From Acetobacterium malicum (lineage in GTDB: Bacteria; Bacillota; Clostridia; Eubacteriales; Eubacteriaceae), in NCBI RefSeq assembly GCF_014284495.1, contig NZ_WJBE01000001.1: 24,000 bases of DNA; one strand, written 5' to 3'. Both the position numbers and the translations under genes were made by a program. Position 1 is the first letter of the stretch; every line of letters starts with the position of its first letter. The notes below the pieces were generated by a model. It made no database searches. It worked only from the letters and a program-made list of their open reading frames with translations, and was not told the origin of the DNA. Below are positions 1 through 19,100 of the stretch, piece by piece.

Positions 1-1424
1 AGGCCGAATTGGCAAAAGAGAGTAAGCTGCTTGAAACAACTCTGGTTTCGGTGGGCGATGGGGTCATATCCTGTGATAAGGATGGTTATGTTTTATTTAT
101 AAATCGGGTAGCAGAGGACTTAACCGGCTGGACAAAAATTGATGCCTTAGGAAAACCCATTGAAACCGTATTCAATATCATCAATGATCTTAATCGGGAA
201 AAGGCTGGAAATATTGTCGCGGAAATCATTAAAACTAAAGAAATTAGAGAACTCGATAATCATACCCTGCTAATTGCCAGAGATGGTAGTGAACGAGCCA
301 TCGAGGACAGCGCTGCCCCAATAATTGAAGAAAATGGCGATGTGCTGGGTGTCGTTCTGGTGTTTCGGGATTATACCGAGAAAAAGCAGAAACTGGATCA
401 GATCGAGTATTTAAGCTATCATGATCAGCTCACCGGCCTTTACAATCGACGCTTCTATGAAGAAGAACTACGACGGATTGATACGCCAGAGAATTTACCC
501 TTGTCTTTAATTATGGGCGATGTCAACGGTCTTAAACTGGTAAATGACAGTTTTGGACATGTAATGGGAGACCAATTATTAAAAAAAGCCGCTGCGACGA
601 TTACCAGAGCCTGCCGCGCGGAAGATGTGGTGGCAAGATTGGGCGGCGATGAATTTGTTGTGCTGCTACCAAAAACAAATCAAATTGAAGCGGAAGAAGT
701 CATTGCACGCATTGAAGAATTGGCAAAAAGTGAAATAGTTGGAACCGTGGAACTTTCTATTTCATTCGGTTTTGAAACGAAGGTGGATAAGGAACAAGAC
801 ATCCAGCTGATTTTTAAAAGAGCAGAAGACTATATGTATCGTCGCAAACTGACGGAAAGTCTGGGAATGCGGAATAAAACTGTCGGTATGGTAATTGAAA
901 CCTTATTTGATAAATACCAGAAGGAAATGTTTCATTCGGAGCGGGTCAGTCGCCTGTCGGCTGAGGTTGGAAATAAAATCGGACTCAATACCAAAGATTC
1001 CCATGATCTCCAAACCGCCGGATTAATGCATGATATTGGCAAGATTGGGATTGCTGAGGGGATTCTCGACAAGTCAGAAAAACTGAGCGAACAGGATTGG
1101 CTGGAAATACGTCGTCACCCTGAAATTGGATACCGCATATTAAGCTCCGCCAACGAATTTGCTGAAATTGCCGATCATATCCTGGAACACCATGAGCGTT
1201 GGGACGGCAGCGGTTATCCCAATGGACTAAAAGGCGAAGAAATCTCGTTGGAAGCCAGGATTATTGCCATCGCTGATGCCTATGATGCAATGACCAGAAT
1301 GCGTTTGCATATGGATGATCTCACAGTTGAAGAAGCCATTGAAGAAATCAATCGCTGCTCCGGTACGCAGTTCGATCCCGAGATTGCCAGAGTTTTTATT
1401 GATATGATAAAAGACGAAAATTGA
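1..1424 (+). CDS. PAS-GGDEF-HD-GYP c-di-GMP turnover protein (5' end probably outside the window)
   Basis: The frame is open to the window edge, with no in-frame stop upstream of the TTG at 9. PAS-like N-terminus (VSVGDGVISCDKDGYVLFINRVAEDLTGW). GGDEF domain with intact RLGGDEF (GGDEF codons nt 642-656) and an RxxD I-site (RAED, nt 615-626) five residues upstream. C-terminal HD-GYP domain (HDIGKIG ... HHERWDGSGYP). Stop TGA at 1422-1424. Confidence 0.88.
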   Translation, partial: AELAKESKLLETTLVSVGDGVISCDKDGYVLFINRVAEDLTGWTKIDALGKPIETVFNIINDLNREKAGNIVAEIIKTKEIRELDNHTLLIARDGSERAIEDSAAPIIEENGDVLGVVLVFRDYTEKKQKLDQIEYLSYHDQLTGLYNRRFYEEELRRIDTPENLPLSLIMGDVNGLKLVNDSFGHVMGDQLLKKAAATITRACRAEDVVARLGGDEFVVLLPKTNQIEAEEVIARIEELAKSEIVGTVELSISFGFETKVDKEQDIQLIFKRAEDYMYRRKLTESLGMRNKTVGMVIETLFDKYQKEMFHSERVSRLSAEVGNKIGLNTKDSHDLQTAGLMHDIGKIGIAEGILDKSEKLSEQDWLEIRRHPEIGYRILSSANEFAEIADHILEHHERWDGSGYPNGLKGEEISLEARIIAIADAYDAMTRMRLHMDDLTVEEAIEEINRCSGTQFDPEIARVFIDMIKDEN

Positions 1425-1482: not shown

Positions 1483-2139
1483 TTAATTGTGTTTTCTAAG
1501 ATTGCGGAGGTTCTGAAACATCACACCGAAGGTTTCGTGTTGGACTTGAGTCGGGTCAAATTTTAACAGTTTAAAAGTGATTTGCACACAAAAACCAATG
1601 GCAAATGCCGAGATTACTGTGCCTAAACCAACCATTCCGCCTAGGAACCAACCAATCAGGACAACGCTGACTTCCAGAATGCCCCGGCATAGGCCGACTG
1701 GCAGTCCGGTTTTTCGGGTCACTGCCACCATCAGGCTGTCTCGGGGTCCGGCCCCAAAGGCCGAGGAAATGTAAAAATATGTCCCCAGTGAGATGATGAA
1801 GAGACCAAGAATAAGTACCAGAGTCCCAATCCAGAAATTACTGAAAAGTGGGATAAAATCTAGAAAAAGGATGAGATCCATAAAGAGACCGATCATAAAC
1901 ATGTTGAAAATAGTCCCCAGTCCAATTTTTTCGCCCAGCAGAAAGACCATCGCAACAATAAGGGCACCCACCGCGGTGTTCACCAGACCGATGCTGACCC
2001 CCAGAGTTTGGCTGATACCACTGTGGAGAACCTCCCAGGGAGCATAGCCGACATTTGCCCGCATGGTCACGATAATGCCCAATCCATAAAGAAAGAGTCC
2101 GAAATTCAGTTTGATAAATCTAAAAATGTAGCCAGTCAT
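1483..2139 (-). CDS. YczE/YitT-like polytopic membrane protein
   Basis: Hydrophobic multi-TM protein with the YczE-type N-terminus (GLGIIVTMRANVGYAPWEVLHSGIS). I chose the start at the ATG (2139-2137, MTGYIF...) because GAGGAGGG lies 4 nt upstream. The ORF-track start at 2202 has no RBS. Confidence 0.7.
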   Translation of the reverse strand: MTGYIFRFIKLNFGLFLYGLGIIVTMRANVGYAPWEVLHSGISQTLGVSIGLVNTAVGALIVAMVFLLGEKIGLGTIFNMFMIGLFMDLILFLDFIPLFSNFWIGTLVLILGLFIISLGTYFYISSAFGAGPRDSLMVAVTRKTGLPVGLCRGILEVSVVLIGWFLGGMVGLGTVISAFAIGFCVQITFKLLKFDPTQVQHETFGVMFQNLRNLRKHN

Positions 2140-2239
2140 AATGCCCTCCTCAAAGAATAATGTTCCCAGTATAACATAAAACGATTTGTGGTCAAAGTCC
2201 AAATCGTGATGGTTCTGAAATATTCGATTCTGTTGATTA

Positions 2240-4671: not shown

Positions 4672-4795
4672 GATAGATAGAGAATCAGTGTAAATGGTTT
4701 TTAAATAGGATAGCTTTTTTGATAACGTGATTTTGAGAAACTCAGATAGAAACTTAAAAAGCAACAAGTCCTAACGATAAATGGAGGAGACTAAC

Positions 4796-5200
4796 ATGGG
4801 ATTAGAAAGTGTTTTATATAAATGTGAAAAGGGTGTAGATCTCAAACAATTGCGGCTTAAGCCCTGGGCAGTGGCTTCTGAAGTGATGGGGCGGTTTAAA
4901 AAAACAAATCAGATTCATCGATGGTTTTTGGAGAATATTCAAAATGGAATTGATGACAGCCGATTTTATCTGGTTGATGAATATCAGTTTAAAAAGCTCT
5001 ATAAGCTGTGTACCACCGTGGATAGTAATCATGATCGGGCTGAAGAATTATTACCCACACTGAAAGGATTTGATATTGGAAGTGCCAAATATGATGAAGT
5101 CTATTTTGAAAATTTAAGCAAGGTGCTGATCATTCTGGGTCACATCAACAATACCTTTGACTTTGAAAAAAATGATCTAGTTTATAGCAGTTCCCATTAG
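4796..5200 (+). CDS. Hypothetical cytoplasmic protein (134 aa), no family recognised
   Basis: The ORF has a strong RBS (GGAGGAG, 7 nt before the ATG at 4796, MGLESV...) and a terminator downstream. No TM helix or signal peptide is seen, and I recognise no catalytic motif. Confidence 0.6.
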   Translation: MGLESVLYKCEKGVDLKQLRLKPWAVASEVMGRFKKTNQIHRWFLENIQNGIDDSRFYLVDEYQFKKLYKLCTTVDSNHDRAEELLPTLKGFDIGSAKYDEVYFENLSKVLIILGHINNTFDFEKNDLVYSSSH

Positions 5201-5391: not shown

Positions 5392-5420
5392 TTGAGATTT
5401 CGAAAATAATCCGATATAAT
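5392..5420 (+). promoter_or_regulatory. Sigma-A type promoter of MCP gene 1 (TTGAGA-17-TATAAT)
   Basis: TTGAGA at 5392-5397, a 17-nt spacer, and a perfect TATAAT at 5415-5420. It is homologous in layout to the promoter at 8038-8066. The implied leader is about 165 nt. Confidence 0.7.
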
Positions 5421-5590: not shown

Positions 5591-7921
5591 ATGAAACATG
5601 AAAAGAGTTTGTTAGCAAAGATCCTGATGACAGTTGTTTTACCAGTAGCATTAATATTTGGTGCAATTGCAGCTATTGCAATGGTGGTGACAAGTCAGAA
5701 TGTTGATCAGTTTGCAAAGATTCAAAACAATTTGTTGCTGATTTATGTAATCGGTTTAGCTGTTATTGTTGGTGTAATTGTATTGGGAATGAAAGATACC
5801 TCAAACAGAATAACCAGCCTGGCAGAGGCCGCTAAACGGATGGCGGATGGGGACATTGAAGTTGGGTTAAGATCTGATAAGCCTCAGGATCAGTTGGGAG
5901 AAATTGCTTATGCGCTTTCATTACTGGCGGAAAATAATAAGACGCAGTCGGAAATTGCAAAAAAACTGGCAGATGGAGATCTGTCAGAAACGATCAGCCC
6001 ACTATCGGATAAAGACCGGCTGGGAAGTAATTTAGTTGCGGCTCAAAAGTCGATGAAAAAACTCCTCGATTATTTTGTTATGATGCCGGAATTGGTCGAG
6101 AAAAAAGTGTATTATGACAAAAGTGTAGAAAATGACTTAGCCGGTGATTATAAAAAAGCTCTTGGGCAGGCAAATCAGGCCATGGCGACAGTCACCACAA
6201 ATATGGAATATTATTTAGCAATTCTGGATGCTTTACCGTACCGGGTGACCACCACCGATAAAGACATGAAAATGGTTTTTGTCAACAAAATTCTTGAAGA
6301 TCTGATGAAAATGACCGGCACGGCCGAAAAACGGGAAGACATTCGCGGTATCGATTGTCATACCTGTAATCTGGAAATGTGTCATACTGAGAACTGCGGC
6401 GTGACAATGCTAAATGGCAATGGGGATCAATTGAATGAACTTGGCTATGCCGAATATCGCTTTGAATTCCGCGAACGATATTATCGGATGGATACGATGA
6501 ACCTCATCGACAAAAATGGTGAAAAGATCGGTTATGTAGAAGTATCCCACGACACAACACCGGTAATGAGTGTAAATAATTATCGCAGCAATGCGGTAGT
6601 CCGACTGGCGGACAACCTGCATCGCTTATCGGAGGGAAATCTTGATCTTGATTTACATGTCGATGAACCAGGCCAGTATACTAATGAAGTGTATGCGCAA
6701 TTTAAAGCGATTGGAGATAGCTTGACGGAGGTGAAAAATACCATTGGCAATCTGATTGATGATGCAAGTATGCTGACCCATGCGGCAATTGATGGTCAGC
6801 TCGATGCCCGAGCGGATGAAACCAAATTCGCTGGCTCATGGCTGGAACTGATCAGTGGAATGAATGGTATTCTTGGTGAAATAGCGAAGCCGCTCCAAGA
6901 GGTCACGGATGTTATGGATGAGATTTCACAAGGGAATCTGAAAGTTACCGTAAACGGCTCTTATCGCGGGAGTTTTGATGAATTAAAACAGTCGGTTAAC
7001 TCAATGGGGAGCGGATTCAAAAAAATAGTAGGAGAAATTTCCACAGTAACCGAAGAAATCGGCAATGGAAATCTCAATTTGGAAAATGTCAGTTCCTTTG
7101 GTGGCGATTTCAATACGATTTCCGATGCTCTTAATACCATTATTGGAACGCTGAACTCGCTGTTGGGTGATATCAATCATGCTGCTGAACAGGTTAATGC
7201 CGGGGCCAATCAGGTCTCCGACAGCAGCCAGGCCCTGGCCCAGGGGTCGACTGAACAGGCCAGTTCGATTCAGGAACTGACTGCTTCGATTACCGAAATA
7301 GCTGACCAGACCAAGAATAACGCCGTCAACGCAAACAAGGCCAGAGAACTGGCTACCGATGTTATGGGTAACGCGGACAAAGGAAACCATCAGATGACCG
7401 AGATGCAGCAGTCGATGGTGGAAATCAACAAGTCATCGGAAGACATTTCCAAGATTATCAAGGTCATTGATGACATTGCCTTCCAGACCAATATTCTGGC
7501 GCTTAATGCGGCCGTTGAAGCCGCCCGGGCGGGACAGCATGGTAAAGGTTTTGCCGTGGTGGCAGAAGAAGTCCGCACCCTGGCCGCCCGTAGTGCTGAT
7601 GCTGCCAAGGAAACGACCGGCTTAATTGAAGGCTCCATCAGTAAGGTCGCCGAGGGGACAAAAATTGCCGATGAAACCGCCAGTGCCCTGGATGAAATTG
7701 TTGGCGGCATCGCCAAAGTTAACGATTTAATTGGCAACATCGCCACGGCATCCAATGAACAGGCGACCGGCATTGCTCAGATTAACATGGGTGTTGAGCA
7801 GGTTGCCCAGGTCGTTCAACAGAATTCGGCAACTGCTGAAGAAAGTGCAGCCGCCAGTGAAGAACTCTCCGGTCAATCGATCCTGTTAAAACAGATGATC
7901 GACCAGTTCCAATTGAGATAA
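5591..7921 (+). CDS. Methyl-accepting chemotaxis protein: TM hairpin, HAMP, Cys-rich PAS-like domain, poly-HAMP, MA domain
   Basis: RBS GAAGGAG upstream. Two TM helices are separated by only ~13 residues. HAMP-like segments follow ([43 protein letters not shown]). The canonical MCP signalling hairpin is present ([40 protein letters not shown]). Confidence 0.93.
7073..7921 (+). repeat. Near-identical 3' tract shared with the second MCP gene (copy A)
   Basis: Aligns without gaps to 9681-10529 at a constant offset of 2608. Positions 7271-7581 equal 9879-10189 with no difference over 311 bp. The flanks differ only by scattered, mostly synonymous substitutions. Confidence 0.9.
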
Positions 7922-7951
7922 TAATTTATCAGAAAAATGTTTGTATAGATT

Positions 7952-7990
7952 AGAATAACCTTAGGAGTACCCTAAGGTTATTCTATTTTA
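7952..7990 (+). terminator. Rho-independent terminator
   Basis: AGAATAACCTTAGG / CCTAAGGTTATTCT perfect 14-bp stem with loop AGTAC, followed by ATTTTA. Confidence 0.8.
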
Positions 7991-8037: not shown

Positions 8038-8066
8038 TTGAGTTTACTGAAAAAATCATATATAAT
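8038..8066 (+). promoter_or_regulatory. Sigma-A type promoter of MCP gene 2 (TTGAGT-17-TATAAT)
   Basis: TTGAGT at 8038-8043, a 17-nt spacer, and TATAAT at 8061-8066. A second possible extended -10 (TGgTATAAT, TATAAT at 8146-8151) lies inside the leader. Confidence 0.65.
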
Positions 8067-8219
8067 ACTATCAATAATTAAATTATCCTGGCTGAATACC
8101 CTGGCTGTGAAGAGTAACAGCAACGAAATTTATATCGTTTAGTGGTATAATCCTTCCAAGAAGAGTGGTGACGAAAGAAAGAATTGCTTGATAAATAATT
8201 TAATCAAATGGAGGAAAGA

Positions 8220-10529
8220 ATGGAGCATGAAAAAAGTTTGCTGTCAAAAATCCTAATGACAGTTGTCCTACCGACCGTCCTGATTTTTTGCGTGACAGCA
8301 GGTATTTCAATGGTTGTCGTCAGTCAAAATTTCGACCAGTTTGGCGGTATCCAAAATAGTGTGTTGCTGATTTATGCCATCGGTATAGCGTTAATGGTTG
8401 GGGTAAGTGTAATCGGTGTAAAGGGAATATCGGATCGTTTAACTGGCCTGGCTGAGGCTGCTAACCGCCTGGCTGATGGAGAGGTTGAACTTGGTTTAAA
8501 AGTTGATAAACCTCAGGATCAGTTGGGGGAAGTTGCTTATGCACTTTCAGGTATTGCCAAGAGCATGAGATTACAGTCAGAAGCGGCTGGTAAACTGGCA
8601 AAGGGTGATCTGTCAGCAGCAATCATTCCGTCATCGGATAAGGATGTGGTTGGCAACAGTCTGCTAGAAGTCCAGTCATCCATTAAGATGATGAGTGATT
8701 ACCTGATACAACTACCCGAACTCGTTAAAAAGGAAGTGGATCTGAATAAAGTACAAGAAACTGAAATGATTGGCGATTATCAAAAAGGGATCGAACACGT
8801 CAATCAGGCGATCCAGATAGTAGCCGACAAACGCGATTTCTTCCAGGCGATTCTTGATGCGATGCCATACCGAATTACCGTTGTGGATAATGATTTGAAG
8901 TGGACATTTATTAATAAGACCCTTCAGGATCTGAGAATAGCAACCGGGCGCGAGGGCAGTCGCGAATCACTTTATGGTGATGACTGTTGTAAATCAAATC
9001 TGGACATGTGTAAAAATGAAGATTGTGGTGTCAAGGCGTACCGAAAAACAGGCCGAATTGAATTTCCGTTTGCATATCGTGGCGGATATTATCGTATGGA
9101 TACAACGCCGATTATTGACAAACAAGGTCAGACCATTGGCTATGTGGAAACTTCGTTTAACACAAGTGCAACGATGAGCGTCAACAATTATTCAGAAGTG
9201 GAAATTAATCGGCTGGCTGATAATTTAAGACGTTTATCAGCAGGAAATTTGGACTTTGACATGGATATTCAAGAACCAGGTGAATTTACTGGCGAGGTAT
9301 ATGAACAGTTTAAAGCGATTGAAACTAATCTGCGAGAAGTAAAAAATTCCATTGACAGCCTCATTGGCGACGCCATCATTCTGACAACGGCAGCAATGCA
9401 GGGAGACCTGGATGTTCGGGCCGATGAAACCAAATTCAGCGGTTCCTGGCAGGAGCTGATCAGCGGCATGAATGGCATTCTTAGCGTTATGGCAAAACCG
9501 ATGGAAGAGGTCGCGAATGTGATGGATGCCATTGCCAACGGCAATCTTGATGTGATGGTCGAAGGTTATTATCAGGGCAGCTTTGATGTCTTGAAACAGG
9601 CTGTCAATGAAATGGGAATTAACTTTAAAACTATTGTGACAGAGATTTCGACGGTTACCAGAGAAATAAGCAATGGGAACCTCAATTTGGAAAATGTCAG
9701 TTCCTTTGGTGGCGATTTCAACGCGATTTCTGACGCGCTCAATACTATTATTGCGACATTAAACTCGTTGTTGGGTGATATTAATCATGCCGCTGAGCAG
9801 GTTAATGCCGGAGCCAATCAGGTCTCTGACAGCAGCCAGGCCCTGGCCCAGGGTTCAACTGAACAGGCCAGTTCGATCCAGGAACTGACTGCTTCGATTA
9901 CCGAAATAGCTGACCAGACCAAGAATAACGCCGTCAACGCAAACAAGGCCAGAGAACTGGCTACCGATGTTATGGGTAACGCGGACAAAGGAAACCATCA
10001 GATGACCGAGATGCAGCAGTCGATGGTGGAAATCAACAAGTCATCGGAAGACATTTCCAAGATTATCAAGGTCATTGATGACATTGCCTTCCAGACCAAT
10101 ATTCTGGCGCTTAATGCGGCCGTTGAAGCCGCCCGGGCGGGACAGCATGGTAAAGGTTTTGCCGTGGTGGCAGAAGAAGTCCGCACCCTTGCCGCTCGAA
10201 GTGCTGATGCAGCCAAAGAAACGACCGGCTTAATTGAAGGCTCCATCAGTAAGGTCGCCGAGGGGACAAAAATTGCCGATGAAACCGCCAGTGCCCTGGA
10301 CGAAATTGTTGGCGGAATCGCCAAGGTTAATGATTTAATCGGCAACATCGCTACCGCATCCAACGAACAGGCGACCGGCATTGCTCAGATTAATATGGGT
10401 GTTGAGCAGGTTGCCCAGGTCGTTCAGCAGAATTCGGCAACCGCCGAAGAAAGTGCTGCCGCCAGTGAAGAACTCTCCGGCCAATCGATCCTGTTAAAAC
10501 AGATGATTGACCAGTTCCAGCTGAGATAA
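8220..10529 (+). CDS. Methyl-accepting chemotaxis protein, paralog of 5591-7921
   Basis: Same architecture as the first MCP. I chose the start ATG at 8220 (MEHEKSLL, aligning with MKHEKSLL of paralog 1) because GGAGG at 8210-8214 lies 5 nt upstream. The last ~280 aa are identical to paralog 1 apart from two substitutions (T/A and G/A) just inside the tract, whereas the sensor half is far more diverged by eye. Confidence 0.93.
9681..10529 (+). repeat. Near-identical 3' tract shared with the first MCP gene (copy B)
   Basis: Counterpart of 7073-7921; see that feature. Confidence 0.9.
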
Positions 10530-10560: not shown

Positions 10561-10587
10561 CCACCTTTTAATAAGGTGGCTTTTTTT
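10561..10587 (+). terminator. Rho-independent terminator of MCP gene 2
   Basis: CCACCTT / AAGGTGG stem with loop TTAAT, followed by CTTTTTTT and preceded by an A-run. Confidence 0.75.
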
Positions 10588-10602
10588 AGAAGGAAGATCA
10601 CC

Positions 10603-11937
10603 ATGAATCGATTAATTGCGAAACTGATACTTTTTACTGACTCAAGTCAGGAGCGTCTGCTTAAGCAGATGGGACAGCTCTATGAGCGTTTTTATCAAGG
10701 TGCAGATACCAGAGAAAGCCTGATTGCCGAAAGTTATCGACAAATAAAAGCACTGCTGGAAATTGCCACTGATTTTGGCTTTGATCGAAACCTCTGGCAT
10801 CATTACCTGACCTTTTTACTGATAACGAATGAAAACCCATTCAGTTTAACTTGTGAAAAGGTGGGGAAAAAAGAGGGCAGTGTTAACTTTTTTGCTCAAA
10901 ACGACTGCAAAATTTTTAAAGAGCTCTTTGATTTTGATTTCACCGAATTGGAATCAGCACTGGGAATTGATTGTTTCACCCGGGTTTCAAATTACCAGGC
11001 CATCAAAAAACCGGAATTTATGTACAATCAGAATGTCAGTGAAAAGGTGAAATCACTGAGTCTGAGATTAGCGGCTGCCGCAAACGAACAAGTATTTTTC
11101 GACGAAATCACGCAGTTCTATGGCGAATACGGAGTGGGTATGTTTGGATTGAACAAAGCCTTCCGGATCATTCCCAAAGTCGATAACACCGGAGTTATCT
11201 TTAACCCCATCAATAACATGGATAAGGTCATGCTGGCAGATTTGGTGGGATACGAAAATCAGAAACAAAAGCTTGTCGAAAATACCAAAGCCTTTGTTGA
11301 GGGACGAAAAGCCAACAATGTCTTGTTGTTTGGCGACAGCGGTACCGGTAAGTCCACCAGTATCAAAGCCATCGTCAACGAATTCTATCATCAGGGATTG
11401 CGGATGATCGAAATTTACAAACATCAATTTCGGGATTTATCAAATGTCATTGCCCAGATTAAAAACCGCAACTATCGGTTTATTATCTATATGGATGATC
11501 TTTCTTTTGAGGAATTTGAAATTGAGTACAAATTTCTGAAAGCTGTCATTGAAGGTGGCGTGGAAACAAAACCCGACAACATTTTGATTTATGCCACTTC
11601 AAATCGTCGCCATCTGATTCGCGAAACCTGGAACGACCGAAATGATATGGAAGCAAATGGCGAGATCCACCGCTCCGATACCATGCAGGAAAAGCTGTCG
11701 CTTGTCAATCGTTTTGGAGTCAGTATTTTTTATGAACGACCCAGTCAGAAACAGTACTTTGGCATCGTCGCCGAACTGGCCAGGCGGGAAGGCCTGAACA
11801 TCTCAGAAGAAGTTCTTTCCGGTGAGGCTAATAAATGGGAATTGCAGCATGGCGGAATTTCTGGCCGAACCGCCCAACAATTCATCAATCATTTGCTTTC
11901 TGTCGCTTCAGAGGAAAATTTAATGGATAAATGTTAA
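10603..11937 (+). CDS. DUF815-type P-loop (AAA-like) ATPase
   Basis: Walker A motif LFGDSGTGKST and Walker B-like IIYMDDLSF. The C-terminal half is typical of DUF815 ATP-binding proteins, and the N-terminal ~220 aa is helical and unassigned. I chose the start ATG at 10603 (MNRLIAK) because GAAGGAAG lies upstream. The GTG at 10576 lies inside the terminator stem. Confidence 0.75.
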   Translation: MNRLIAKLILFTDSSQERLLKQMGQLYERFYQGADTRESLIAESYRQIKALLEIATDFGFDRNLWHHYLTFLLITNENPFSLTCEKVGKKEGSVNFFAQNDCKIFKELFDFDFTELESALGIDCFTRVSNYQAIKKPEFMYNQNVSEKVKSLSLRLAAAANEQVFFDEITQFYGEYGVGMFGLNKAFRIIPKVDNTGVIFNPINNMDKVMLADLVGYENQKQKLVENTKAFVEGRKANNVLLFGDSGTGKSTSIKAIVNEFYHQGLRMIEIYKHQFRDLSNVIAQIKNRNYRFIIYMDDLSFEEFEIEYKFLKAVIEGGVETKPDNILIYATSNRRHLIRETWNDRNDMEANGEIHRSDTMQEKLSLVNRFGVSIFYERPSQKQYFGIVAELARREGLNISEEVLSGEANKWELQHGGISGRTAQQFINHLLSVASEENLMDKC

Positions 11938-12171: not shown

Positions 12172-13842
12172 ATGAAAATTAAATTTTTAGGAGCGGCACT
12201 ATCCGTAACTGGTTCCTGCCATCTGGTGACGACCGATCACTGTAAATTCCTCCTGGACTGCGGTTTGTTTCAAGGCAGTGAAGCCCTGGAAGAATTAAAC
12301 TATCAGGAGTTTGATTTTAATCCGGCAGAAATTGATTTTATAATTTTGAGTCATGCTCATGTGGATCATTGTGGGCGCATTCCCTTACTTGTCAAGCAGG
12401 GGTTCAAAGGAAAGATTTATTGCACCGGGGCAACCGCTGAAATAGCCGACATCATGCTTCAGGACAGCGGCAATATTCACGAAATGGATGCGAAATGGAT
12501 CAACAAACGCACCATCCGTTCTGGAAAGCGGCAGATTGCTCCACTTTACACCCAGGCAGATGCTGCCCGTTGTAGCCAATATTTCTTTCCGGTGGCATAT
12601 GGACAAACTTTTGAGATCAATCCTTGGATCAAGATCCGGCTCAATGAAGCAGGTCATATACTGGGGGCAGCAATCATTGAAATTTGGGCTGAAGATGACG
12701 GAAAAACCACCAAGCTTGTTTATTCAGGGGATATTGGGGCTGCCAATCAGCGGATGCTCAATAATCCGACTCTGATTGCAGCGGCTGATTATCTGATTAT
12801 GGAAACGACCTATGGGGATCGTGTCCATGAAACCCAACAGGAAAGTGGGAAACGTTTTCTGGATATCATTTTTAAAACCGTTGCACGGGGTGGAACTGTG
12901 GTGGCACCTGCCTTTGCTTTGGGACGAACCCAGGATCTGATCCATGAGCTGGAGCTGTTTTATGATAACCATGAACTACATCAGAATCAGCTTGATAAAG
13001 TCAATGTTTATGTTGACAGTCCGCTGGCTACCGATGCCACCGAAATTTTTCGGAAAAATGCCCACTATTTTAACGATAAAATAAAGGCGCGAATCAAAAA
13101 AGGTGAGGAGCTTTTTTATTTCAGAAATCTTTATTTTACCAAAAGCATCGATCAATCCAAGGCGTTAAACGATGATCCGGCACCTAAGATCATCATTTCA
13201 TCCAGTGGCATGGCTGATGCCGGCCGGGTTCAACATCATCTCAAGCACTATCTCTGGAAACCAAAATCGAGCATTGTTTTTGCTGGCTATCAGGCAGAGG
13301 GAACCACTGGACGGGCAATTACCAGCGGCGAAAAATATGTCCGGATCCTCCGTGAACGGATTCGTGTGAATGCGGAAATCTATTTTCTTGAGGGGTTCTC
13401 TGCTCATGCCGATAAAAATGATCTGCTCAAATGGTTGTCCGGGTTTAAAGAAAAGCCAAAGAAAATCTTTCTGGTACATGGGGAAGAAGAGCCAAAAAAA
13501 ATATTTGCGGAAACAGTCAAAAATATTCTCGGGTATGATTGTACAATCGTGGAAGATGTATCCGAATATGTTCTTGGAGAAGCTGAAGAAGTTGTTTGTG
13601 ATGGCATAAAAAGTCGGATTGATACAAAAAAACAACTGCTTCAAATAAAAACCAATTTACAAGATATGTCTGATGAGCTGGACTCGCTTTTGTCTGAGCC
13701 AGGTATGAAAACAAAAGAAATACTTACAAAAGAGAAAGTTGAAGATATTTCCGATCTTTCAAGTGACCTTGAAAAGATCCTGACGAAACTTAAATCAGTG
13801 GTTGGCGAAAAAGATTTGCAACAAGAAGAGAAAACGGATTGA
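12172..13842 (+). CDS. MBL-fold beta-CASP family hydrolase (CPSF/RNase J-like RNA-metabolising nuclease) with an acidic coiled-coil tail
   Basis: RBS AGGAGA before the ATG at 12172 (MKIKFLGA). Metallo-beta-lactamase motif HAHVDHCG. Beta-CASP/RMMBL-type C-terminal motifs (GFSAHAD, LVHGE). The last ~90 aa are low-complexity and Lys/Glu/Asp/Leu-rich. Confidence 0.8.
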   Translation: MKIKFLGAALSVTGSCHLVTTDHCKFLLDCGLFQGSEALEELNYQEFDFNPAEIDFIILSHAHVDHCGRIPLLVKQGFKGKIYCTGATAEIADIMLQDSGNIHEMDAKWINKRTIRSGKRQIAPLYTQADAARCSQYFFPVAYGQTFEINPWIKIRLNEAGHILGAAIIEIWAEDDGKTTKLVYSGDIGAANQRMLNNPTLIAAADYLIMETTYGDRVHETQQESGKRFLDIIFKTVARGGTVVAPAFALGRTQDLIHELELFYDNHELHQNQLDKVNVYVDSPLATDATEIFRKNAHYFNDKIKARIKKGEELFYFRNLYFTKSIDQSKALNDDPAPKIIISSSGMADAGRVQHHLKHYLWKPKSSIVFAGYQAEGTTGRAITSGEKYVRILRERIRVNAEIYFLEGFSAHADKNDLLKWLSGFKEKPKKIFLVHGEEEPKKIFAETVKNILGYDCTIVEDVSEYVLGEAEEVVCDGIKSRIDTKKQLLQIKTNLQDMSDELDSLLSEPGMKTKEILTKEKVEDISDLSSDLEKILTKLKSVVGEKDLQQEEKTD

Positions 13843-13899
13843 TAATCGGGTAAGATCATTTTTACAAGCAAATGAATAATGAAAAACACTCAGGAGGGT

Positions 13900-14703
13900 A
13901 TGATGAACAAAAAGTTTCAGGAAGCTGATGACAAATTAAAGGCTCAAATTCTTGACCAGATACCAGCCCCGGTCATGGCAGTTAATAAAGAACTGATAGT
14001 GATCTATATGAATGAAGCTGGCAAAAAATTAATAAAAAGAAGTGCAGAGGATATTATTGGAATTGCCTGCAAAGATATAATCTGCACCGATCAGTGTGGA
14101 ACTGACGATTGTGCCATGCTAAAAGCGATGAAGTCAGGGAAGACCTATGCTTCCCGAACCGAAGCAACCTTAGGCGGGCAAACGATTCCTTTAGAGTTTT
14201 CAGCAGTACCTCTGGTTGATGATAGCGGAGAGATCATTGGTGGCCTCGAATTTGTCTTGGACATTACAGAGCGAGTTCTATATGAGAATCGTCTCAAAGA
14301 ACAAAACCATACAATCCGAGAAATGTCCACACCGACAATTAAATTATGGGAAGGTGTTATGGTATTGCCGGTTGTGGGTGTTGTTGACTCAATGAGAGCT
14401 CAGCATATGATGGAAAGCATGCTGACAAAAATCGCTGAAACGTATGCAAAAGTAATTATTTTGGATATTCACGGTGTTGCAGCCGTGGATACGGCCGTAG
14501 CCAATCATTTGATTAAAATAACAAAAGCAACTAAATTGATGGGGTGTGATTGTATTTTGTCGGGAATTTCACCTGCCGTGGCGCAAACAATCATCCAATT
14601 AGGAATTGATATGGAAGCGATCAACACCCGGGCAACACTCAGTGATGCTTTGACTGAAGCATTTTTAATGTTAAATCTGGAAGTGAATAAGAAAAAACAG
14701 TGA
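13900..14703 (+). CDS. RsbR-like stressosome scaffold/sensor: Cys-rich PAS N-domain plus STAS C-domain
   Basis: RBS AGGAGGG before the ATG at 13900. N-terminal PAS-like fold with C-x4-C-x3-C-x4-C (nt 14068-14112). The C-terminal STAS domain has RsbR hallmarks (MSTPTIKLWEGVMVLPVVGVVDSMRAQ, LDIHGVAAVDT, SGISPAVAQTIIQLGID). Thr is present at the positions I align to the RsbR phospho-acceptors (VDT and AQT). Confidence 0.85.
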   Translation: MMNKKFQEADDKLKAQILDQIPAPVMAVNKELIVIYMNEAGKKLIKRSAEDIIGIACKDIICTDQCGTDDCAMLKAMKSGKTYASRTEATLGGQTIPLEFSAVPLVDDSGEIIGGLEFVLDITERVLYENRLKEQNHTIREMSTPTIKLWEGVMVLPVVGVVDSMRAQHMMESMLTKIAETYAKVIILDIHGVAAVDTAVANHLIKITKATKLMGCDCILSGISPAVAQTIIQLGIDMEAINTRATLSDALTEAFLMLNLEVNKKKQ

Positions 14704-14736
14704 AATAATATTTTTGATGGGAATAGGTTGAAAGTA

Positions 14737-15093
14737 ATGGGAGAAGACTATAATACATCCGTAACCGTGATAAAAAATAACCTGATTGTGGCATTTCCAG
14801 CAGAAATGACGGATTCGTGTATTCAAAACATCGAAAAAACAATTATTGATAAAACCTATCAGAAGAATATTCGGGGAGTACTTCTTAATTTTTCAATGGT
14901 GACTGTTATGGATACATATACATACCAGGCTTTTGAAAACATTACAAGGGTATTTTCATTGATGGGGATTCAGACAATCTGGGTAGGTTTGAATCCCGGG
15001 GTAGTTTTTGGTTTGATTGACTTGGACGTTGCGATTAATATAAGAATAAAAATGGCAATTAATCTTGAGATTGGTTTAACGTTGCTCAATTAG
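14737..15093 (+). CDS. RsbS-like single-domain STAS protein
   Basis: A ~118 aa STAS-only protein immediately after the RsbR-like gene. MVTVMDTYTYQAF aligns with the DxxS/T phospho-site loop of RsbS/SpoIIAA-type proteins. Start uncertain: ATG at 14737 or TTG at 14728. Confidence 0.75.
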   Translation: MGEDYNTSVTVIKNNLIVAFPAEMTDSCIQNIEKTIIDKTYQKNIRGVLLNFSMVTVMDTYTYQAFENITRVFSLMGIQTIWVGLNPGVVFGLIDLDVAINIRIKMAINLEIGLTLLN

Positions 15094-15117
15094 AGTAAAT
15101 GGTAAAACTGGTAAAAG

Positions 15118-15594
15118 ATGATGAAAATATCTGATGTATGTTTAACAAAAGAAATTAGCGAAAGAGTCAGGGTCAGAGAAACAAAAAAAATAGATCTTGT
15201 TTTTAGCCACGATAATGAGAACGTGGTTTATTCTGTTCGTAGTATTGCTAAAAAAGCTGGATTTCGTTTAACGGATGAGGTGTTAATAGCCGTAGCTGCT
15301 TCGGAACTATCGACAAATATTTTACGGTATGCTGGAACAGGCATAATTGAAGTAAGTATTGTTACCGATGAAGTCAGCCAGGCCAATGGGATTGAACTGT
15401 TTGCAAGCGATAAAGGACCGGGGATCAATGATATTGAACAGGCATTAACGGAAAACTACAGCTCACAGACAAATAGTTTGGGACAAGGTCTTCCGAGTGT
15501 GCAGCGAATCATGGACGAGTTCTATATCGAATCGGTTTCAGGCAAAGGAACGCGAGTGCTGACACGTAAATGGGTGGGATATGGAGAAAATTGA
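15118..15594 (+). CDS. RsbT-like GHKL serine/threonine kinase (anti-sigma regulatory factor family)
   Basis: N-box ASELSTNILRYAG, G1 box SDKGPGI, G2-like SLGQGLPSVQRIMDEF, and the typical small size (158 aa). Confidence 0.85.
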   Translation: MMKISDVCLTKEISERVRVRETKKIDLVFSHDNENVVYSVRSIAKKAGFRLTDEVLIAVAASELSTNILRYAGTGIIEVSIVTDEVSQANGIELFASDKGPGINDIEQALTENYSSQTNSLGQGLPSVQRIMDEFYIESVSGKGTRVLTRKWVGYGEN

Positions 15595-16168
15595 ATATGC
15601 AATGATACTCCGAGCGCTGCTGTGGGATGTTTCAGAATGCGGTGATCTCGGATATATTAAAGAATATGATAATAAGTGCTTTGTCTGTTTGATTGACATT
15701 CTTGGTCATGGCAAAATGGCAAGAAGTATTGCAGTTAATGCAGAAGAATATCTTGAAGCCAATTATCAACGCAACCTCATTGACGTCATGAACGGTCTCC
15801 ATAAACATTTATATGGTAGTAGAGGCGGAGTTGCCCTAATGTGTCGCCTGGATATACCAGCTGGGAAACTTCAGTATACAGGAATTGGTAATGTCACTGG
15901 AAGAGTAATCGGTTCCAATCAACATCGGATGCTTTCAAAAGATGGAATCGTGGGATTTGGAAGGATTAGTCCAATTATTCGAGAATGTGATTTTTCTGAT
16001 CGCGATCTCCTGATTCTCTATTCTGATGGTATTAAAGAGCACTTCAATTTGCTTGACCATTTGGCATTATTTACTGGCGAGACGGAATCAATCGCAAGTG
16101 GTGTTCTTAAAGAATTTGGCAAAAAAACTGATGATGCTTGCTGTATAGCGTTAAAGTATATTAAATAA
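15581..16168 (+). CDS. RsbX-like PP2C/SpoIIE-family phosphatase
   Basis: The metal-binding motifs CGD...DILGHG and ILYSDGI match small RsbX-type PP2C phosphatases. Size is 195 aa. It overlaps the RsbT-like gene by 14 nt. Confidence 0.8.
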   Translation: MEKIEYAMILRALLWDVSECGDLGYIKEYDNKCFVCLIDILGHGKMARSIAVNAEEYLEANYQRNLIDVMNGLHKHLYGSRGGVALMCRLDIPAGKLQYTGIGNVTGRVIGSNQHRMLSKDGIVGFGRISPIIRECDFSDRDLLILYSDGIKEHFNLLDHLALFTGETESIASGVLKEFGKKTDDACCIALKYIK

Positions 16169-16189
16169 AGGCGGAATCGAGGTAGAGCA

Positions 16190-19100
16190 ATGATCGAATT
16201 GGGTCATACACGGGTCGATAGTAATATTTCTTTGATCGAAGCAAGAAAAAAAGCAAGACATATTGCTTTAAAATTAGGATGTTCCGAAATTAAGGCAGCC
16301 CGAATTGAAGCAGTTTTATCGGAAATGATTCGGCAGTTGCTTAATGACACAAATATGGTTGACTGTATTATTTCAGTCATAAAAAACCAGGATAAAGAAG
16401 GCATTAATATCGCATATGATAACCTGGAGGTACCGTTTAGCTTGAATTGTGCTGAAAAATATGTGAATCCGTTTGAAATTCACGAAAAGCCGGATGGAAA
16501 ATACTTGGTAAATGTCTTTTTTCCTTTCATAACAGTCGAGCCAGATTTCTGTGAGAGCCTCGTCGAAGAAATTCGTATTGAAATTGAGTCACCGACAAGG
16601 GCAGAGTTACTCAAAGAAATTGAGGAAAAGAACAAAGAATTGGCGAGTAGCAGAGAGTTTATCGAATCAGTTCTGGAAAATTTACAGGCTGCAGTTTATG
16701 CAAAAGATTTAAATGGGAAATATACATATATTAACAAACAATGGGAAACGGTAACGGGGATTGATCGAGATGCCTGCATCGGAAAAACGGCGACGGACAT
16801 ATTCAGACCAGATCTTGGTGAAGCGTATGAAGAAAATGATCTCAATGTTATTAAATCAAAGAAAATTCAGATAATCGAAGAACACTCTAATCGGGAAGAA
16901 AACACACAAACCTATTTATCCACAAAAGTACCGATGAAACAGAATGATGATATTATCGGACTTTGTAGTATTTCTACAGATATCACTCAACGAAAAATTA
17001 TGGAAGAAGAGCTTTATAAAGCAAAAAAAACCGCTGAAGAGGCGGCCAAGTCCAAGTCCGATTTTTTGGCAAATATGAGCCATGAAATAAGAACCCCCAT
17101 GAATGCCATACTCGGAATGAGTTATTTAATGGAAAAAACTGATCTGTCCGAAAAACAGAAAGACTATCTCGGAAAAATAAGGTTGTCGGGGCAGCATTTG
17201 TTGGGTGTTATTAATGATATCCTGGACTTTTCAAAAATTGAGGCAGGGAAACTGGATATTGAATGCATTGATTTTAAATTATATGAGGTTTTGGATAATT
17301 TGTCCAATTGTATTAGTGAAAAATGTATGTCAAAAGGTTTGGAACTTGTCTTTGATGTTAATTCGAATGTTCCTAACGAACTATGTGGCGATCCGCTGCG
17401 AATTGGACAAATCCTGATTAACTATGTCAACAACGCCATAAAATTCACGGAACAAGGTGAAATTATTGTCAGAATAAGGAAAGAAGAAACGTTAGCCCAA
17501 GGATTTTTGTTGAAATTTGAAGTTCAGGATACCGGAATCGGCTTGACAACAGATCAGAAAGCTAAGTTATTCCAGTCTTCTCAACAAGCTGATACCTCGA
17601 CCACACGAAAATACGGTGGAACGGGATTGGGACTGGCTATTTCAAAAGATCTGGCGGAATTAATGGGTGGCGAAGTTGGTGTGGAATCAGAATATGGTAA
17701 AGGCAGTAATTTTTGGTTTACGACCCATTTTCGTGTCTCCGGCAAAACGGAGCAATCAATTATCTCAAATGAAGGGTTGGAAAATTTACGTGTATTGGTA
17801 GTCGATGATAATAATCAGGCCCGAATGATTCTATCGGAGATGTTAAATTCCATGAGAATTCGGGTGGATGAAGCAGGGTCGGGTGAGCGTGCCATCGAAA
17901 TGGTTCAAATGGAAGATTTGCGCCAAGATCCCTACGAAATTGTCTTCGTTGATATGCAGATGCCAAATTTAAATGGCATTCAAACTGTTGAACGATTAAG
18001 TCACATCAAACTGAAAAGCCCACCCAAATATGTGATGGTCACTGCTTTTGGAAGAGAAGAAGTATTTTGTAAAGCAGAACGGGCGGGATTTGAACTGGTT
18101 ATGGTCAAACCGGTTAATCTTTGGGTACTGTACGAAACGATGATTAGAATTCTTGAAAAAAACCGACTGAATGAGACCGTCGAAAAAAAAGAAGTTGAGA
18201 CGACCGGTCAAAGGAAAATTTTACAGACAATTTCCGGGGCTAGAATTTTGTTGGTGGAAGATAATGAGTTGAACCAGATGGTTGCACTTGAACTACTTAA
18301 AGAGGCCGGACTGATTGTAGATGTGGCAGAAAATGGTCGGATTGCCGTGGAAATGGTGGCTGAAAATGAATATGATCTGGTTCTGATGGATATGCAGATG
18401 CCGGTACTGGATGGGCTTGAAGCGACCAGGCGGATTCGTTCAGATAGTCGATTTGCGGAACTGCGGATAATTGCGATGACTGCCAATGCAATGGCAAATG
18501 ATCGCGAACGTTGTATCGCTGCCGGAATGAATGACCATTTGCCTAAACCGATTGAACCGAATCATTTGTTTGAAATACTAGCGCATTGGATACCATCAAG
18601 AACAAATATTAATGTTTCAGATGACTGTATCGGTGATACTGATGATGCGGTTTTTCCAGAAGCGGAATTAAACATCAGAATCAGTGGTCTGGACGTTGAA
18701 TTGGGTCTACGGCGGGTTCTCGGTAAGAAAAAACCGTATCTAAATTTGCTGAGAAAATTTATGGCCGGACAACCGAGTTTCATAACAGACCTGGATCAGG
18801 CAGTCAGCAATGGCGATTATACCACCGCTGAGAGGCTTGTCCATACATTAAAAGGGGTATCTGGGAATATTGGGGCAATCGAAATAAGAGAAACGGCAAC
18901 GATTCTTGAGACCGCAATCCGTGAACAACCAAGTAAGGATACATTAAGACCGCTCATTAAAAATCTGGCTACGCAGTTAAAAAAGCTGACTGAATCATTG
19001 CAAACGGCGTTGCCAAAAGAAAAAAAAGCTGTTGACGACAGCGATACTGCTTCCACGAAGGTTGAACTAATACGTTTTTTAGAAGAACTTATGCCGGGGA

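What the first reader, a model, noticed from the sequence alone, without database searches (positions are those of the whole stretch)
6203..6565. Cytoplasmic four-cysteine PAS-like sensor inserted between HAMP domains of both chemoreceptors
Both MCPs have two TM helices separated by only ~13 residues, so there is no periplasmic ligand-binding domain and sensing must be cytoplasmic or membrane-proximal. After the first HAMP comes a PAS-like module ([23 protein letters not shown] ... [22 protein letters not shown]) interrupted by a cysteine cluster. MCP1 has [16 protein letters not shown] (C256/C259/C264/C269, nt 6356-6397). MCP2 has [16 protein letters not shown] (nt 8985-9026). Four Cys are kept in both paralogs although the surrounding sensor sequence has diverged strongly. 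This argues for a functional metal, Fe-S or redox-disulfide site. The best-known precedent for four Cys in a PAS domain is the oxygen-labile [4Fe-4S] PAS of NreB. The spacing here differs, so this may be a distinct sensor class.
Basis: partly seen in the sequence, partly recalled or inferred. Interest (0 to 1): 0.7.

Follow-up and report, generated by a model that had tools for sequence, protein, structure and literature searches.

The report
Three-cysteine PAS sensor in anaerobe chemoreceptors
Two neighbouring chemotaxis receptors of the strict anaerobe Acetobacterium malicum carry a cytoplasmic PAS sensor domain with a conserved cysteine cluster in the cofactor pocket; it belongs to a large, apparently uncharacterised family that probably holds an iron-sulfur cluster (or another metal) for redox or oxygen avoidance.

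Summary
MCP1 (5591-7921) and MCP2 (8208-10529) are hairpin-anchored chemoreceptors with a cytoplasmic domain (MCP1 residues 203-334) that models confidently as a PAS fold (pLDDT 93). All four Cys of MCP1 lie in a 14-residue cluster.

The claim of four conserved cysteines is only partly right. Three Cys align between the paralogs (C256, C264, C269). The fourth is shifted (C259 in MCP1, the position equivalent to 257 in MCP2).

An exhaustive profile search found 794 cluster representatives. In 205 aligned domain copies the triad G-x2-C-x7-C-x-T-x2-C-G is intact in 203, and E317 is present in 201. The fourth candidate ligand varies by subfamily: C298, H315, or C259/C257.

The closest solved relative is the heme PAS of Aer2. 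Its heme-binding His aligns inside the C264-C269 segment, so the triad sits at the cofactor site. Most carriers are chemoreceptors, some are hybrid kinases, and every named host is an anaerobe.

Three-Cys Fe-S PAS sensors are known (OrpR, NreB), but I found none described in a chemoreceptor. Best reading: an Fe-S (less likely Zn) redox/O2 sensor, a new variant of a known kind. Metal content and thiol geometry were not tested.

The parts
5591..7921 (+). MCP1: hairpin-anchored methyl-accepting chemotaxis protein, 776 aa. Identical to WP_186893069.1 of Acetobacterium malicum.
   Evidence: ORF. Pfam MCPsignal 6e-56, HAMP_2 1e-22, HAMP 5e-15. Exact match in the protein collection.
5621..5788 (+). 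Membrane hairpin: TM1 (about residues 11-33), a 14-residue outside loop ([14 protein letters not shown]) and TM2 (about residues 48-66). There is no periplasmic ligand-binding domain.
   Evidence: Read directly from the translation. No topology predictor was run.
5801..5908 (+). Divergent HAMP-like segment after TM2 (residues 71-106), below the Pfam threshold.
   Evidence: Pfam HAMP E = 0.0027, 18.4 bits against a cutoff of 25.
6197..6592 (+). MCP1 Cys-PAS sensor domain (residues 203-334). The finding's range 6203-6565 lies inside it.
   Evidence: AF2 with an alignment: pLDDT 93.4, strand/helix order of a PAS fold. Foldseek against PDB: PAS hits at probability 1.0. Family HMM hit at 6194-6592, E = 2e-38.
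6356..6397 (+). MCP1 cysteine cluster [17 protein letters not shown]256, C264 and C269 form the family-invariant triad. C259 is a lineage-specific fourth Cys.
   Evidence: Codon coordinates. Conservation: 99%, 100% and 100% for the triad, 3% for column 259. All four are kept in 7 of 7 Acetobacterium-group orthologs.
6539..6541 (+). E317 codon. This Glu on strand I-beta is near-invariant in the family and is predicted to face the pocket. It is a candidate non-Cys ligand or hydrogen-bond partner.
   Evidence: E in 201 of 205 copies. Its register relative to Aer2 W283 and the LOV Gln (both at column 319) comes from the alignments, so the pocket-facing orientation is inferred.
6824..7009 (+). HAMP_2/HAMP domain (residues 412-473), followed by a second HAMP stretch. 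This is the relay between the PAS and the kinase-control module.
   Evidence: Pfam HAMP_2 7.6e-25 with two stretches, HAMP 7e-10.
7346..7813 (+). MCP signalling (kinase-control) domain of MCP1, residues 586-741.
   Evidence: Pfam PF00015 E = 6e-56.
8208..10529 (+). MCP2: tandem paralog, 773 aa, 72% identical to MCP1. The C-terminal ~270 aa are identical in protein.
   Evidence: ORF. BLASTP. Pfam.
8823..9200 (+). MCP2 Cys-PAS sensor domain (residues 206-331).
   Evidence: Family HMM hit E = 2e-37. 48% identical to the MCP1 domain.
8985..9026 (+). MCP2 cysteine cluster [16 protein letters not shown]. The triad is C260, C268 and C273. The fourth Cys, C261, sits at the position equivalent to MCP1 residue 257.
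   Evidence: for coordinates. for the alignment. The same motif occurs in MCP2 orthologs in loci L001, L003, L005 and L007.
13927..14301 (+). A third Cys-PAS in the window, in the RsbR-like PAS-STAS protein (gene 13879-14703). Motif GIAC-KDIIC-TDQC-GTDDC, that is C-x8-C-x4-C plus an extra Cys.
   Evidence: Family HMM E = 1.3e-15. hhalign against the family profile: probability 98.3%, E = 1.4e-14, with the three core Cys and the Glu aligned. Pfam PAS_4 + STAS.

Best explanation
The region encodes a cytoplasmic PAS domain of a distinct, widespread subfamily that I call 'Cys-PAS' here. Its signature is G-x2-C-x7(8)-C-x-[TS]-x2-C-G ... G-x2-E-x3-D.

The three invariant cysteines lie on the E-alpha helix, the E-F loop and the N-cap of the F-alpha helix. 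That is where other PAS sensors hold their cofactor.

I propose that the triad, together with a fourth ligand that differs between subfamilies, binds an iron-sulfur cluster. The fourth ligand would be C259 in MCP1, the 257-position Cys in MCP2, C298 or H315 elsewhere, and possibly the invariant E317.

Oxidation, conversion or loss of the cluster (by O2, raised redox potential or a reactive small molecule) would reshape the E-F segment and the beta-sheet. The change would pass through the C-terminal helix into the downstream HAMP units and the kinase-control tip, alter CheA activity, and steer this strict anaerobe away from oxidising conditions.

Shown: the PAS fold, the conservation pattern, the pocket location by homology, and the domain architecture. 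Inferred: metal or cluster binding, the cluster type, the signal sensed and the sign of the response.
For: 1. Fold. The AF2 model has pLDDT 93.4 with PAS topology and matches PAS structures by Foldseek.

2. Family size. 794 cluster representatives have E <= 1e-3 and 369 have E <= 1e-10.

3. Conservation. In 205 aligned domain copies the triad is intact in 203 and E317 is present in 201.

4. Wandering fourth ligand. Type A (95 copies) has A259 + W293 + C298 + H220. Type W (67 copies) has W259 + F/Y298 + H315. The Acetobacterium type has C259 or C257 with Y298. 166 of 205 copies have a candidate at C298, C259, C257 or H315.

5. Pocket location. The family profile matches the Aer2 PAS-HAMP structure 3VOL at E = 4.6e-5, and the C-x8-C-x4-C subclass profile matches it at 1.1e-7. 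Aer2's H234 (the heme-ligating His, from my knowledge of Aer2) aligns inside the C264-C269 segment. The conserved Cys of the LOV GRNCRFLQG motif (the photoactive Cys, from general knowledge) aligns with C256.

6. Precedents for three-Cys Fe-S PAS sensors. OrpR uses C52, C61 and C65, also 13 residues from first to last, to bind a redox-sensitive [4Fe-4S] (PMC8359166). B. licheniformis NreB uses C63, C66 and C78 to bind a [2Fe-2S] with a labile fourth ligand; its last Cys, like C269 here, immediately precedes the helix (PMC13478379).

7. Hosts. Every named host is an anaerobe: Acetobacterium, Holophaga, Methanospirillum, Treponema, Oscillospiraceae, Lachnospiraceae, Anaerolineaceae.

8. Modularity. 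The domain feeds chemoreceptors (104 of the 150 best hits), hybrid histidine kinases and a STAS protein. That is the behaviour expected of a self-contained cofactor sensor.
Against: - There are no metal or spectroscopic data.
- I could not obtain model coordinates, so convergence of the thiols is untested.
- Sequence alone cannot separate Fe-S from Zn or from a thiol switch.
- 20 of 205 copies have none of the candidate extra ligands other than E317.
- The subtype covariation is confounded by phylogeny, because it reflects two clades.
- The host list is small (about ten named taxa). Most hits are unnamed metagenome proteins.
- Homology to OrpR could not be tested because no sequence was available.
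- The profile match to the NreB PAS (9WEX) is not significant (E = 0.19).
- Arrays of up to 4-5 copies per receptor are not explained by a simple O2 switch.
Confidence: 0.55

Rival explanations
1. The triad plus a fourth ligand binds Zn(II) or another thiophilic metal ion. The site would be either structural, rigidifying the E-F loop, or sensory for metal, HOCl or oxidant, as in the zinc CZB domain of chemoreceptors.
For: Closely spaced Cys in a short loop, with variable Cys/His fourth ligands, is typical of zinc sites.
Against: Structural zinc sites normally keep all four ligands fixed, but here only three are invariant. The site lies in the cofactor pocket, not in a peripheral knuckle. As I recall it, the WalK zinc site uses His, Asp and Glu rather than Cys. 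Pfam reported no CZB hit. Restriction to anaerobic hosts is not expected for zinc, although the sample is small.
Confidence: 0.2
2. The site is a metal-free thiol/disulfide (or persulfide) redox switch. The cysteines would form reversible disulfides under oxidising conditions and so change the PAS conformation.
For: There are three to four Cys within 14 residues, the domain is cytoplasmic, and the hosts are anaerobes. Disulfide-switching PAS-linked kinases such as ArcB are known (general knowledge).
Against: A switch needs two Cys, not an invariant triad with fixed spacing, an invariant Gly after the last Cys, a conserved Thr, and a compensating fourth ligand. The motif looks like a ligand-binding loop.
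Confidence: 0.1
3. The domain binds heme b through a Cys thiolate. It would be a derivative of the Aer2 heme PAS with a changed axial ligand, sensing gases such as CO, NO or O2.
For: The best solved relative is the Aer2 heme PAS, with the shared GANI segment just before the ligand position. In MCP1, H265 falls on the column aligned with Aer2 H234. Acetobacterium metabolises CO (general knowledge).
Against: Column 265 is N, K, R or G in the family, and Lys in MCP2. The column equivalent to Aer2 W283 is V or S. One thiolate would be enough, so three invariant Cys are unexplained. There is no CXXCH motif, and the domain is cytoplasmic, which rules out c-type heme.
Confidence: 0.07
4. The cluster is a chance or purely lineage-specific feature with no cofactor role, in an otherwise ligand-free PAS that serves as a dimerisation or relay module.
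For: Pfam does not recognise the MCP1 or MCP2 domain above threshold, and no function is annotated.
Against: The triad is intact in 203 of 205 copies across bacteria and archaea, at domain identities down to about 25-30%. Chance clustering has probability about 1.5e-5.
Confidence: 0.02

Closest known systems
Aer2 (P. aeruginosa / V. cholerae): heme-b PAS placed between HAMP domains of a chemoreceptor
   Same: The receptor logic is the same: a cytoplasmic PAS embedded among HAMP units and feeding an MCP signalling domain. Aer2 is the closest solved sequence relative (3VOL E = 4.6e-5 and 1.1e-7). Foldseek TM-score is about 0.6. The cofactor-ligating segment is at the same place in the fold.
   Different: The heme ligand His234 and the O2-stabilising Trp283 are not conserved (columns 265 and 319). 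An invariant Cys triad takes their place. Unlike Aer2, which I recall as soluble, MCP1 and MCP2 are membrane-anchored by a hairpin. The upstream HAMP here is only sub-threshold.
OrpR (Desulfovibrio vulgaris): sigma54 activator with a three-Cys [4Fe-4S] PAS (PMC8359166)
   Same: It has three fully conserved Cys in a cytoplasmic PAS of a strict anaerobe. The distance from first to last Cys is 13 residues in both (C52/C61/C65 against C256/C264/C269). A fourth ligand is proposed to be a carboxylate. It senses redox potential.
   Different: The middle Cys is displaced by one residue (C-x8-C-x3-C against C-x7-C-x4-C). The output is an AAA+ sigma54 activator, not an MCP. Sequence homology was not tested here.
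NreB: PAS Fe-S sensor kinase ([4Fe-4S] in S. carnosus; three-Cys [2Fe-2S] with a labile SH ligand in B. licheniformis, PDB 9WEX, PMC13478379)
   Same: The Fe-S cluster is held inside a PAS by Cys in the segment that replaces the C/D/E helices. The last Cys sits immediately before the F-alpha-equivalent helix (C78 before helix 79-82; C269 before model helix 68-73). A three-Cys coordination with a variable fourth ligand is documented.
   Different: The spacing is C-x2-C-x11-C. The profile match to 9WEX is not significant (E = 0.19). The output is a HisKA_3 kinase. The hosts are facultative aerobes.
Pfam PAS_4 (PF08448) and PAS_10 (PF13596; e.g. PF0695, PDB 3CAX)
   Same: These are the generic PAS models that partly cover the domain. 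Some family members pass the PAS_4 threshold (P0051, P0102). 3CAX is a top structural hit at 23% identity.
   Different: MCP1 and MCP2 fall below both thresholds. Neither Pfam model encodes the Cys triad. No dedicated model matched in Pfam or NCBIfam.

Membership tests
PAS domain superfamily | Five-stranded antiparallel beta-sheet (A, B, G, H, I) flanked by the C-F helices | tested here: met
   AF2 model at pLDDT 93.4 with strands 16-20, 25-29, 85-91, 94-104 and 110-119 and helices between them. Foldseek against PDB gives 163 hits at E <= 1e-3; all 50 listed are PAS or LOV domains.
PAS domain superfamily | Match to a curated PAS profile above its gathering score | tested here: not met
   MCP1 PAS_4 scores 19.7 bits against 23.1. 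MCP2 PAS_10 scores 17.4 against 22.1. Other family members do pass PAS_4.
Aer2-type heme PAS chemoreceptor | Significant sequence similarity to the Aer2 PAS | tested here: met
   Family profile against 3VOL E = 4.6e-5. Subclass profile E = 1.1e-7.
Aer2-type heme PAS chemoreceptor | Heme-ligating His (H234) and distal Trp (W283) conserved | tested here: not met
   Column 265 holds N 98, K 53, R 22 and G 16 of 205. Column 319 holds V, I or S. Numbering was checked.
Aer2-type heme PAS chemoreceptor | PAS flanked by HAMP domains on both sides within an MCP | tested here: inconclusive
   The downstream HAMP_2/HAMP call is strong (412-473 and following). The upstream HAMP is sub-threshold (18.4 bits against 25). 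Residues 334-410 have no Pfam call.
NreB-type Fe-S PAS | Cys motif C-x2-C-x11-C(-x2-C) | tested here: not met
   The family motif is C-x7-C-x4-C. MCP1 has C-x2-C-x4-C-x4-C. The NreB motif is taken from PMC13478379.
NreB-type Fe-S PAS | Sequence homology to the NreB PAS beyond the shared fold | tested here: not met
   9WEX_A scores E = 0.19, 15.1 bits against the family profile. 9WEX is identified as the NreB PAS.
NreB-type / OrpR-type Fe-S PAS | Binds an Fe-S cluster (UV-vis, EPR, Fe and sulfide content) | not testable with these tools
   This needs anaerobic purification and spectroscopy.
OrpR-type three-Cys PAS | Three invariant Cys in the PAS, C-x8-C-x3-C, within 5-8 Å of each other | tested here: inconclusive
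   Three invariant Cys with the same 13-residue distance are present, but the middle Cys is offset by one. A C-x8-C-x4-C subclass exists, including the RsbR-like protein in this window. Distances could not be measured because no coordinates were returned.
OrpR-type three-Cys PAS | Sequence homology to the OrpR PAS | not tested
   The OrpR sequence could not be retrieved.
c-type heme PAS-like sensors (DcrA, GSU0582/0935) | CXXCH motif and a periplasmic location | tested here: not met
   MCP1 reads C-H-T-C-N and C-H-T-E-N-C-G, so there is no CXXCH. The domain follows TM2 and is cytoplasmic.
LOV flavin PAS | GXNCRFLQ motif with flavin-binding Arg, Gln and Asn | tested here: not met
   C256 aligns with the LOV Cys, but the following columns are S/x/[A,W]/x. 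They are not R-F-L-Q.
CZB zinc-binding chemoreceptor domain | Match to the CZB profile (3 His + 1 Cys helical bundle) | tested here: not met
   Pfam reported no CZB hit at E <= 1 for either MCP. The fold here is PAS.

The most novel reading that the evidence does not exclude
The invariant three-Cys site may hold a site-differentiated Fe-S cluster. Its fourth position would be either filled by a weak, exchangeable ligand (E317, H315 or solvent) or capped by a lineage-specific Cys. The receptor would then sense by direct binding of a small molecule at the unique iron, for example sulfide or persulfide as in the 2026 NreB structure, or CO, NO or a thiol metabolite. That would define a class of 'ligand-at-cluster' chemoreceptors. 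The subfamily-specific fourth ligand would tune specificity, and tandem arrays of up to 4-5 domains would integrate or amplify the signal.
Probability: 0.15. Interest if true: 0.85.

Novelty: new variant of a known kind. Interest (0 to 1): 0.62.

Why it matters
The aerotaxis and energy-taxis receptors I know of use FAD (Aer, AerC), heme (Aer2, HemAT), hemerythrin (DcrH) or zinc (TlpD). A July 2026 review of aerotaxis receptors does not mention Fe-S or cysteine at all.

How strict anaerobes such as acetogens and methanogens steer away from oxygen or oxidising conditions is poorly understood. This family is large (at least 794 clusters at 50% identity), lies mostly in chemoreceptors, and was seen only in anaerobes among the named hosts. 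It is a concrete, testable candidate for that function.

It would also extend the short list of Fe-S PAS sensors (NreB, OrpR) to a third output class. The wandering fourth ligand offers a natural experiment in how coordination tunes a sensor.

For annotation, a dedicated HMM would resolve many proteins now labelled only 'methyl-accepting chemotaxis protein' or 'HAMP domain-containing protein'.

Tried and rejected
- Word-indexed homolog search with the 161-aa sensor: no hit. With family alignments it returned only 6 and 4 fragments. The tool was uninformative here, so the exhaustive profile search carried the analysis.
- Single-sequence AF2 of MCP1 185-350: pLDDT 37, unusable. It was replaced by the run with an alignment.
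A single-protein scan gave only Acetobacterium-group loci.
- Model coordinates are not exposed, so thiol-thiol distances could not be measured.
- Literature searches for the motif (CX7CX4C and variants) and for Fe-S chemoreceptors found nothing relevant.
- OrpR supplements are not held, so there was no OrpR sequence to align.
- The residue-level alignment to NreB 9WEX could not be printed, because it never ranked in the top five.
- Considered and rejected: c-type heme (no CXXCH, cytoplasmic), LOV/flavin (flavin-binding residues absent), CZB (no profile hit, wrong fold), and a chance Cys cluster (conservation and p of about 1.5e-5).
Full report
**Observation.** The window carries two tandem chemoreceptor genes on the + strand, MCP1 (5591-7921, 776 aa) and MCP2 (8208-10529, 773 aa). 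Pfam recognises the MCP signalling domain and HAMP_2/HAMP in both. It recognises nothing above threshold in residues ~120-410. NCBIfam matches only the C-terminal half.
- The N-terminus reads as a membrane hairpin: two hydrophobic helices with a 14-residue loop. There is therefore no periplasmic sensor.
- MCP1 has only four Cys in 776 residues, all within 14 residues. The chance of that is about 1.5e-5.
- The paralogs are 72% identical overall, 48% in the sensor, and 100% in the last ~270 aa.
- MCP1 is identical to WP_186893069.1 of Acetobacterium malicum, a strictly anaerobic acetogen.

**Correction to the observation.** When the paralogs are aligned ([16 protein letters not shown] against [16 protein letters not shown]), only three Cys are equivalent: C256, C264 and C269. 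The fourth sits at 259 in MCP1 and at the 257 position in MCP2. Within the Acetobacterium group each arrangement is stable. Seven of seven MCP1 orthologs keep C-x2-C-x4-C-x4-C. MCP2 orthologs in four related loci keep the CC form.

**It is a PAS domain.**
- Isolated sensor segments give only sub-threshold PAS_4 and PAS_10 hits and a weak hit to 3CAX.
- A single-sequence AF2 run was useless (pLDDT 37).
- With a 59-sequence family alignment the model reaches pLDDT 93.4 and pTM 0.84. It has the canonical order A-beta, B-beta, C/D/E/F helices, G-beta, H-beta, I-beta.
- Foldseek against the PDB returns PAS and LOV domains at probability 1.0. The top hits are WalK PAS, 3CAX and Aer2 PAS, with TM-scores of about 0.6.
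- In the model, C256 starts E-alpha, C264 lies in the E-F loop, and C269 caps F-alpha.

**It is a large family defined by three cysteines.** An exhaustive HMMER search of 1.84 billion cluster representatives, using the two-paralog profile, found 794 proteins at E <= 1e-3 and 369 at E <= 1e-10. Many have several copies: up to five matched stretches in that search and up to four in my re-scan. I aligned 203 near-full-length copies from the best 150 proteins plus the two window domains.
- C256 is present in 99%, C264 in 100% and C269 in 100% of copies.
- G253, G270, T266 and I263 are each present in at least 90%.
- E317 is present in 98% and D321 in 95%.
- Column 259 is Ala in 56%, Trp in 33% and Cys in 3%. 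Column 257 is Cys in 7%.
- 52 of 205 copies have only the three core Cys.

The family signature is therefore G-x2-C-x7-C-x-T-x2-C-G ... G-x2-E-x3-D. A C-x8-C-x4-C subclass also exists.

**A wandering fourth ligand.** Two major subtypes differ in a coordinated way.
- Type A (95 copies) has A259, W293, C298, H220 and Q300.
- Type W (67 copies) has W259, F/Y298, H315 and S220.
- The Acetobacterium MCP1 and MCP2 type has C259 or C257 with Y298 and Y315.
- 166 of 205 copies have a candidate extra ligand at C298, C259, C257 or H315.

Because this tracks two clades, it is suggestive rather than proof of contact. Still, an invariant triad with a fourth Cys or His supplied from different positions is the pattern expected of a four-coordinate metal centre.

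**The triad sits at the cofactor site.**
- The closest solved sequence relative is the Aer2 PAS-HAMP structure 3VOL. The family profile matches it at E = 4.6e-5. The C-x8-C-x4-C subclass profile matches it at 1.1e-7.
- Aer2's heme ligand, confirmed as H234 by numbering from W283, aligns inside the C264-C269 segment in both alignments. A shared GANI segment lies just upstream.
- W283 of Aer2 and the conserved Gln of LOV domains align with column 319. By beta-strand alternation, E317 and position 315 should therefore also face the pocket. This is an inference.
- The LOV photoactive Cys (GRNCRFLQG) aligns with C256.
- The heme His and Trp, and the flavin-binding residues, are not conserved in the family. 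The cofactor is therefore not heme b ligated as in Aer2, and not flavin.

**Distribution.**
- 104 of the 150 best proteins have an MCP signalling domain. In a Pfam scan of 50 of them, 36 have MCPsignal and 34 have HAMP_2.
- Most of the rest are fragments. Six of the ten long non-MCP proteins scanned are hybrid histidine kinases.
- The window holds a third copy, in the RsbR-like PAS-STAS protein (13879-14703). hhalign gives probability 98.3% and E = 1.4e-14, with the three Cys and the Glu aligned.
- Named hosts are Acetobacterium, Holophaga, Methanospirillum (an archaeon; four tandem copies), Treponema, Oscillospiraceae, Lachnospiraceae and Anaerolineaceae. All are anaerobes, but the sample is small.

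**Mechanism.** The best-supported reading is an Fe-S cluster bound by the triad plus a variable fourth ligand, acting as a redox or O2 sensor. The signal would pass through the I-beta strand and C-terminal helix into the downstream HAMP units and the kinase-control module, as in Aer2. Two precedents support it.
- OrpR of D. vulgaris has three invariant PAS cysteines (C52, C61, C65). The distance from first to last is 13 residues, as here. They bind a redox-sensitive [4Fe-4S] that converts to [3Fe-4S] (PMC8359166).
- B. licheniformis NreB has a three-Cys [2Fe-2S] with a labile SH ligand. Its last Cys, like C269, immediately precedes the helix (PMC13478379).

I put Fe-S at about 0.55, zinc or another metal at about 0.2, a metal-free thiol switch at about 0.1, and Cys-ligated heme at about 0.07. 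None of these can be separated without biochemistry, and I could not measure thiol distances because model coordinates are not exposed.

**Comparison with known families.**
- The domain works like Aer2 in architecture and like OrpR and NreB in its likely cofactor chemistry.
- It is not a member of the Aer2 heme family, because the ligand residues are absent.
- It is not a member of the NreB family. The motif differs and the match to 9WEX is E = 0.19.
- Membership of an OrpR clade is untested.
- No paper in the library describes the motif or an Fe-S chemoreceptor. A 2026 aerotaxis review does not mention Fe-S or cysteine.

**Verdict.** The feature is real and strongly conserved. The domain is best filed as a new variant of a known kind: a cofactor-binding PAS sensor in a chemoreceptor with HAMP relay domains. 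It is of moderate to high interest because it is large, unannotated, experimentally tractable, and bears on how strict anaerobes navigate redox gradients.

Noticed in passing
window 13879-14703 (+); Cys-PAS at 13927-14301: The RsbR-like PAS-STAS protein carries a related Cys-cluster PAS (GIAC-KDIIC-TDQC-GTDDC, that is C-x8-C-x4-C plus one extra Cys). The same sensor type therefore also feeds a stressosome-like module in this genome. The same gene and motif occur in locus L006 at 13168-13542.
   Followed up: partly
window 13879-20394 (+): Stressosome-like operon wired to two-component and c-di-GMP outputs. It comprises RsbR-like PAS-STAS, RsbS-like STAS (14728-15093), an RsbT-like HATPase (15118-15594), a PP2C/SpoIIE phosphatase (15581-16168), a hybrid kinase with PAS-HisKA-HATPase-REC-REC-Hpt (16190-19276), and a REC-HD-GYP protein (19273-20394).
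   Followed up: no
window 7120-7921 vs 9730-10529: The last ~270 codons of MCP1 and MCP2 encode identical protein. The DNA is 93-100% identical per 100-nt window, so all differences there are synonymous. This indicates strong purifying selection, or repeated gene conversion, on the signalling half while the sensors diverge.
   Followed up: partly
window 5392-5420, 7951-7985, 8038-8066, 10561-10579: Each MCP looks like its own transcription unit. There are promoter-like sites upstream (11/12 and 10/12 matches) and strong terminator-like hairpins downstream.
   Followed up: no
homologs P0001, P0002, P0003-P0006: Some receptors carry 3-5 tandem Cys-PAS copies. In some the period is ~222 aa (PAS plus HAMP units, e.g. 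P0001 at 235, 458, 681 and 904). In others the copies abut directly with a period of ~117 aa (P0002 of Methanospirillum). The reason for such arrays is unexplained.
   Followed up: no
window 9-1424 (+) and 10576-11937 (+): The flanking genes are a PAS-GGDEF-HD-GYP protein (9-1424) and a DUF815 AAA-type ATPase immediately downstream of MCP2 (10576-11937). No che genes lie in the window.
   Followed up: no
window 4781-5200 (+) and 1483-2202 (-): Two ORFs (139 aa and 239 aa) have no Pfam match at E <= 1e-3. The 139-aa ORF lies directly upstream of MCP1.
   Followed up: no
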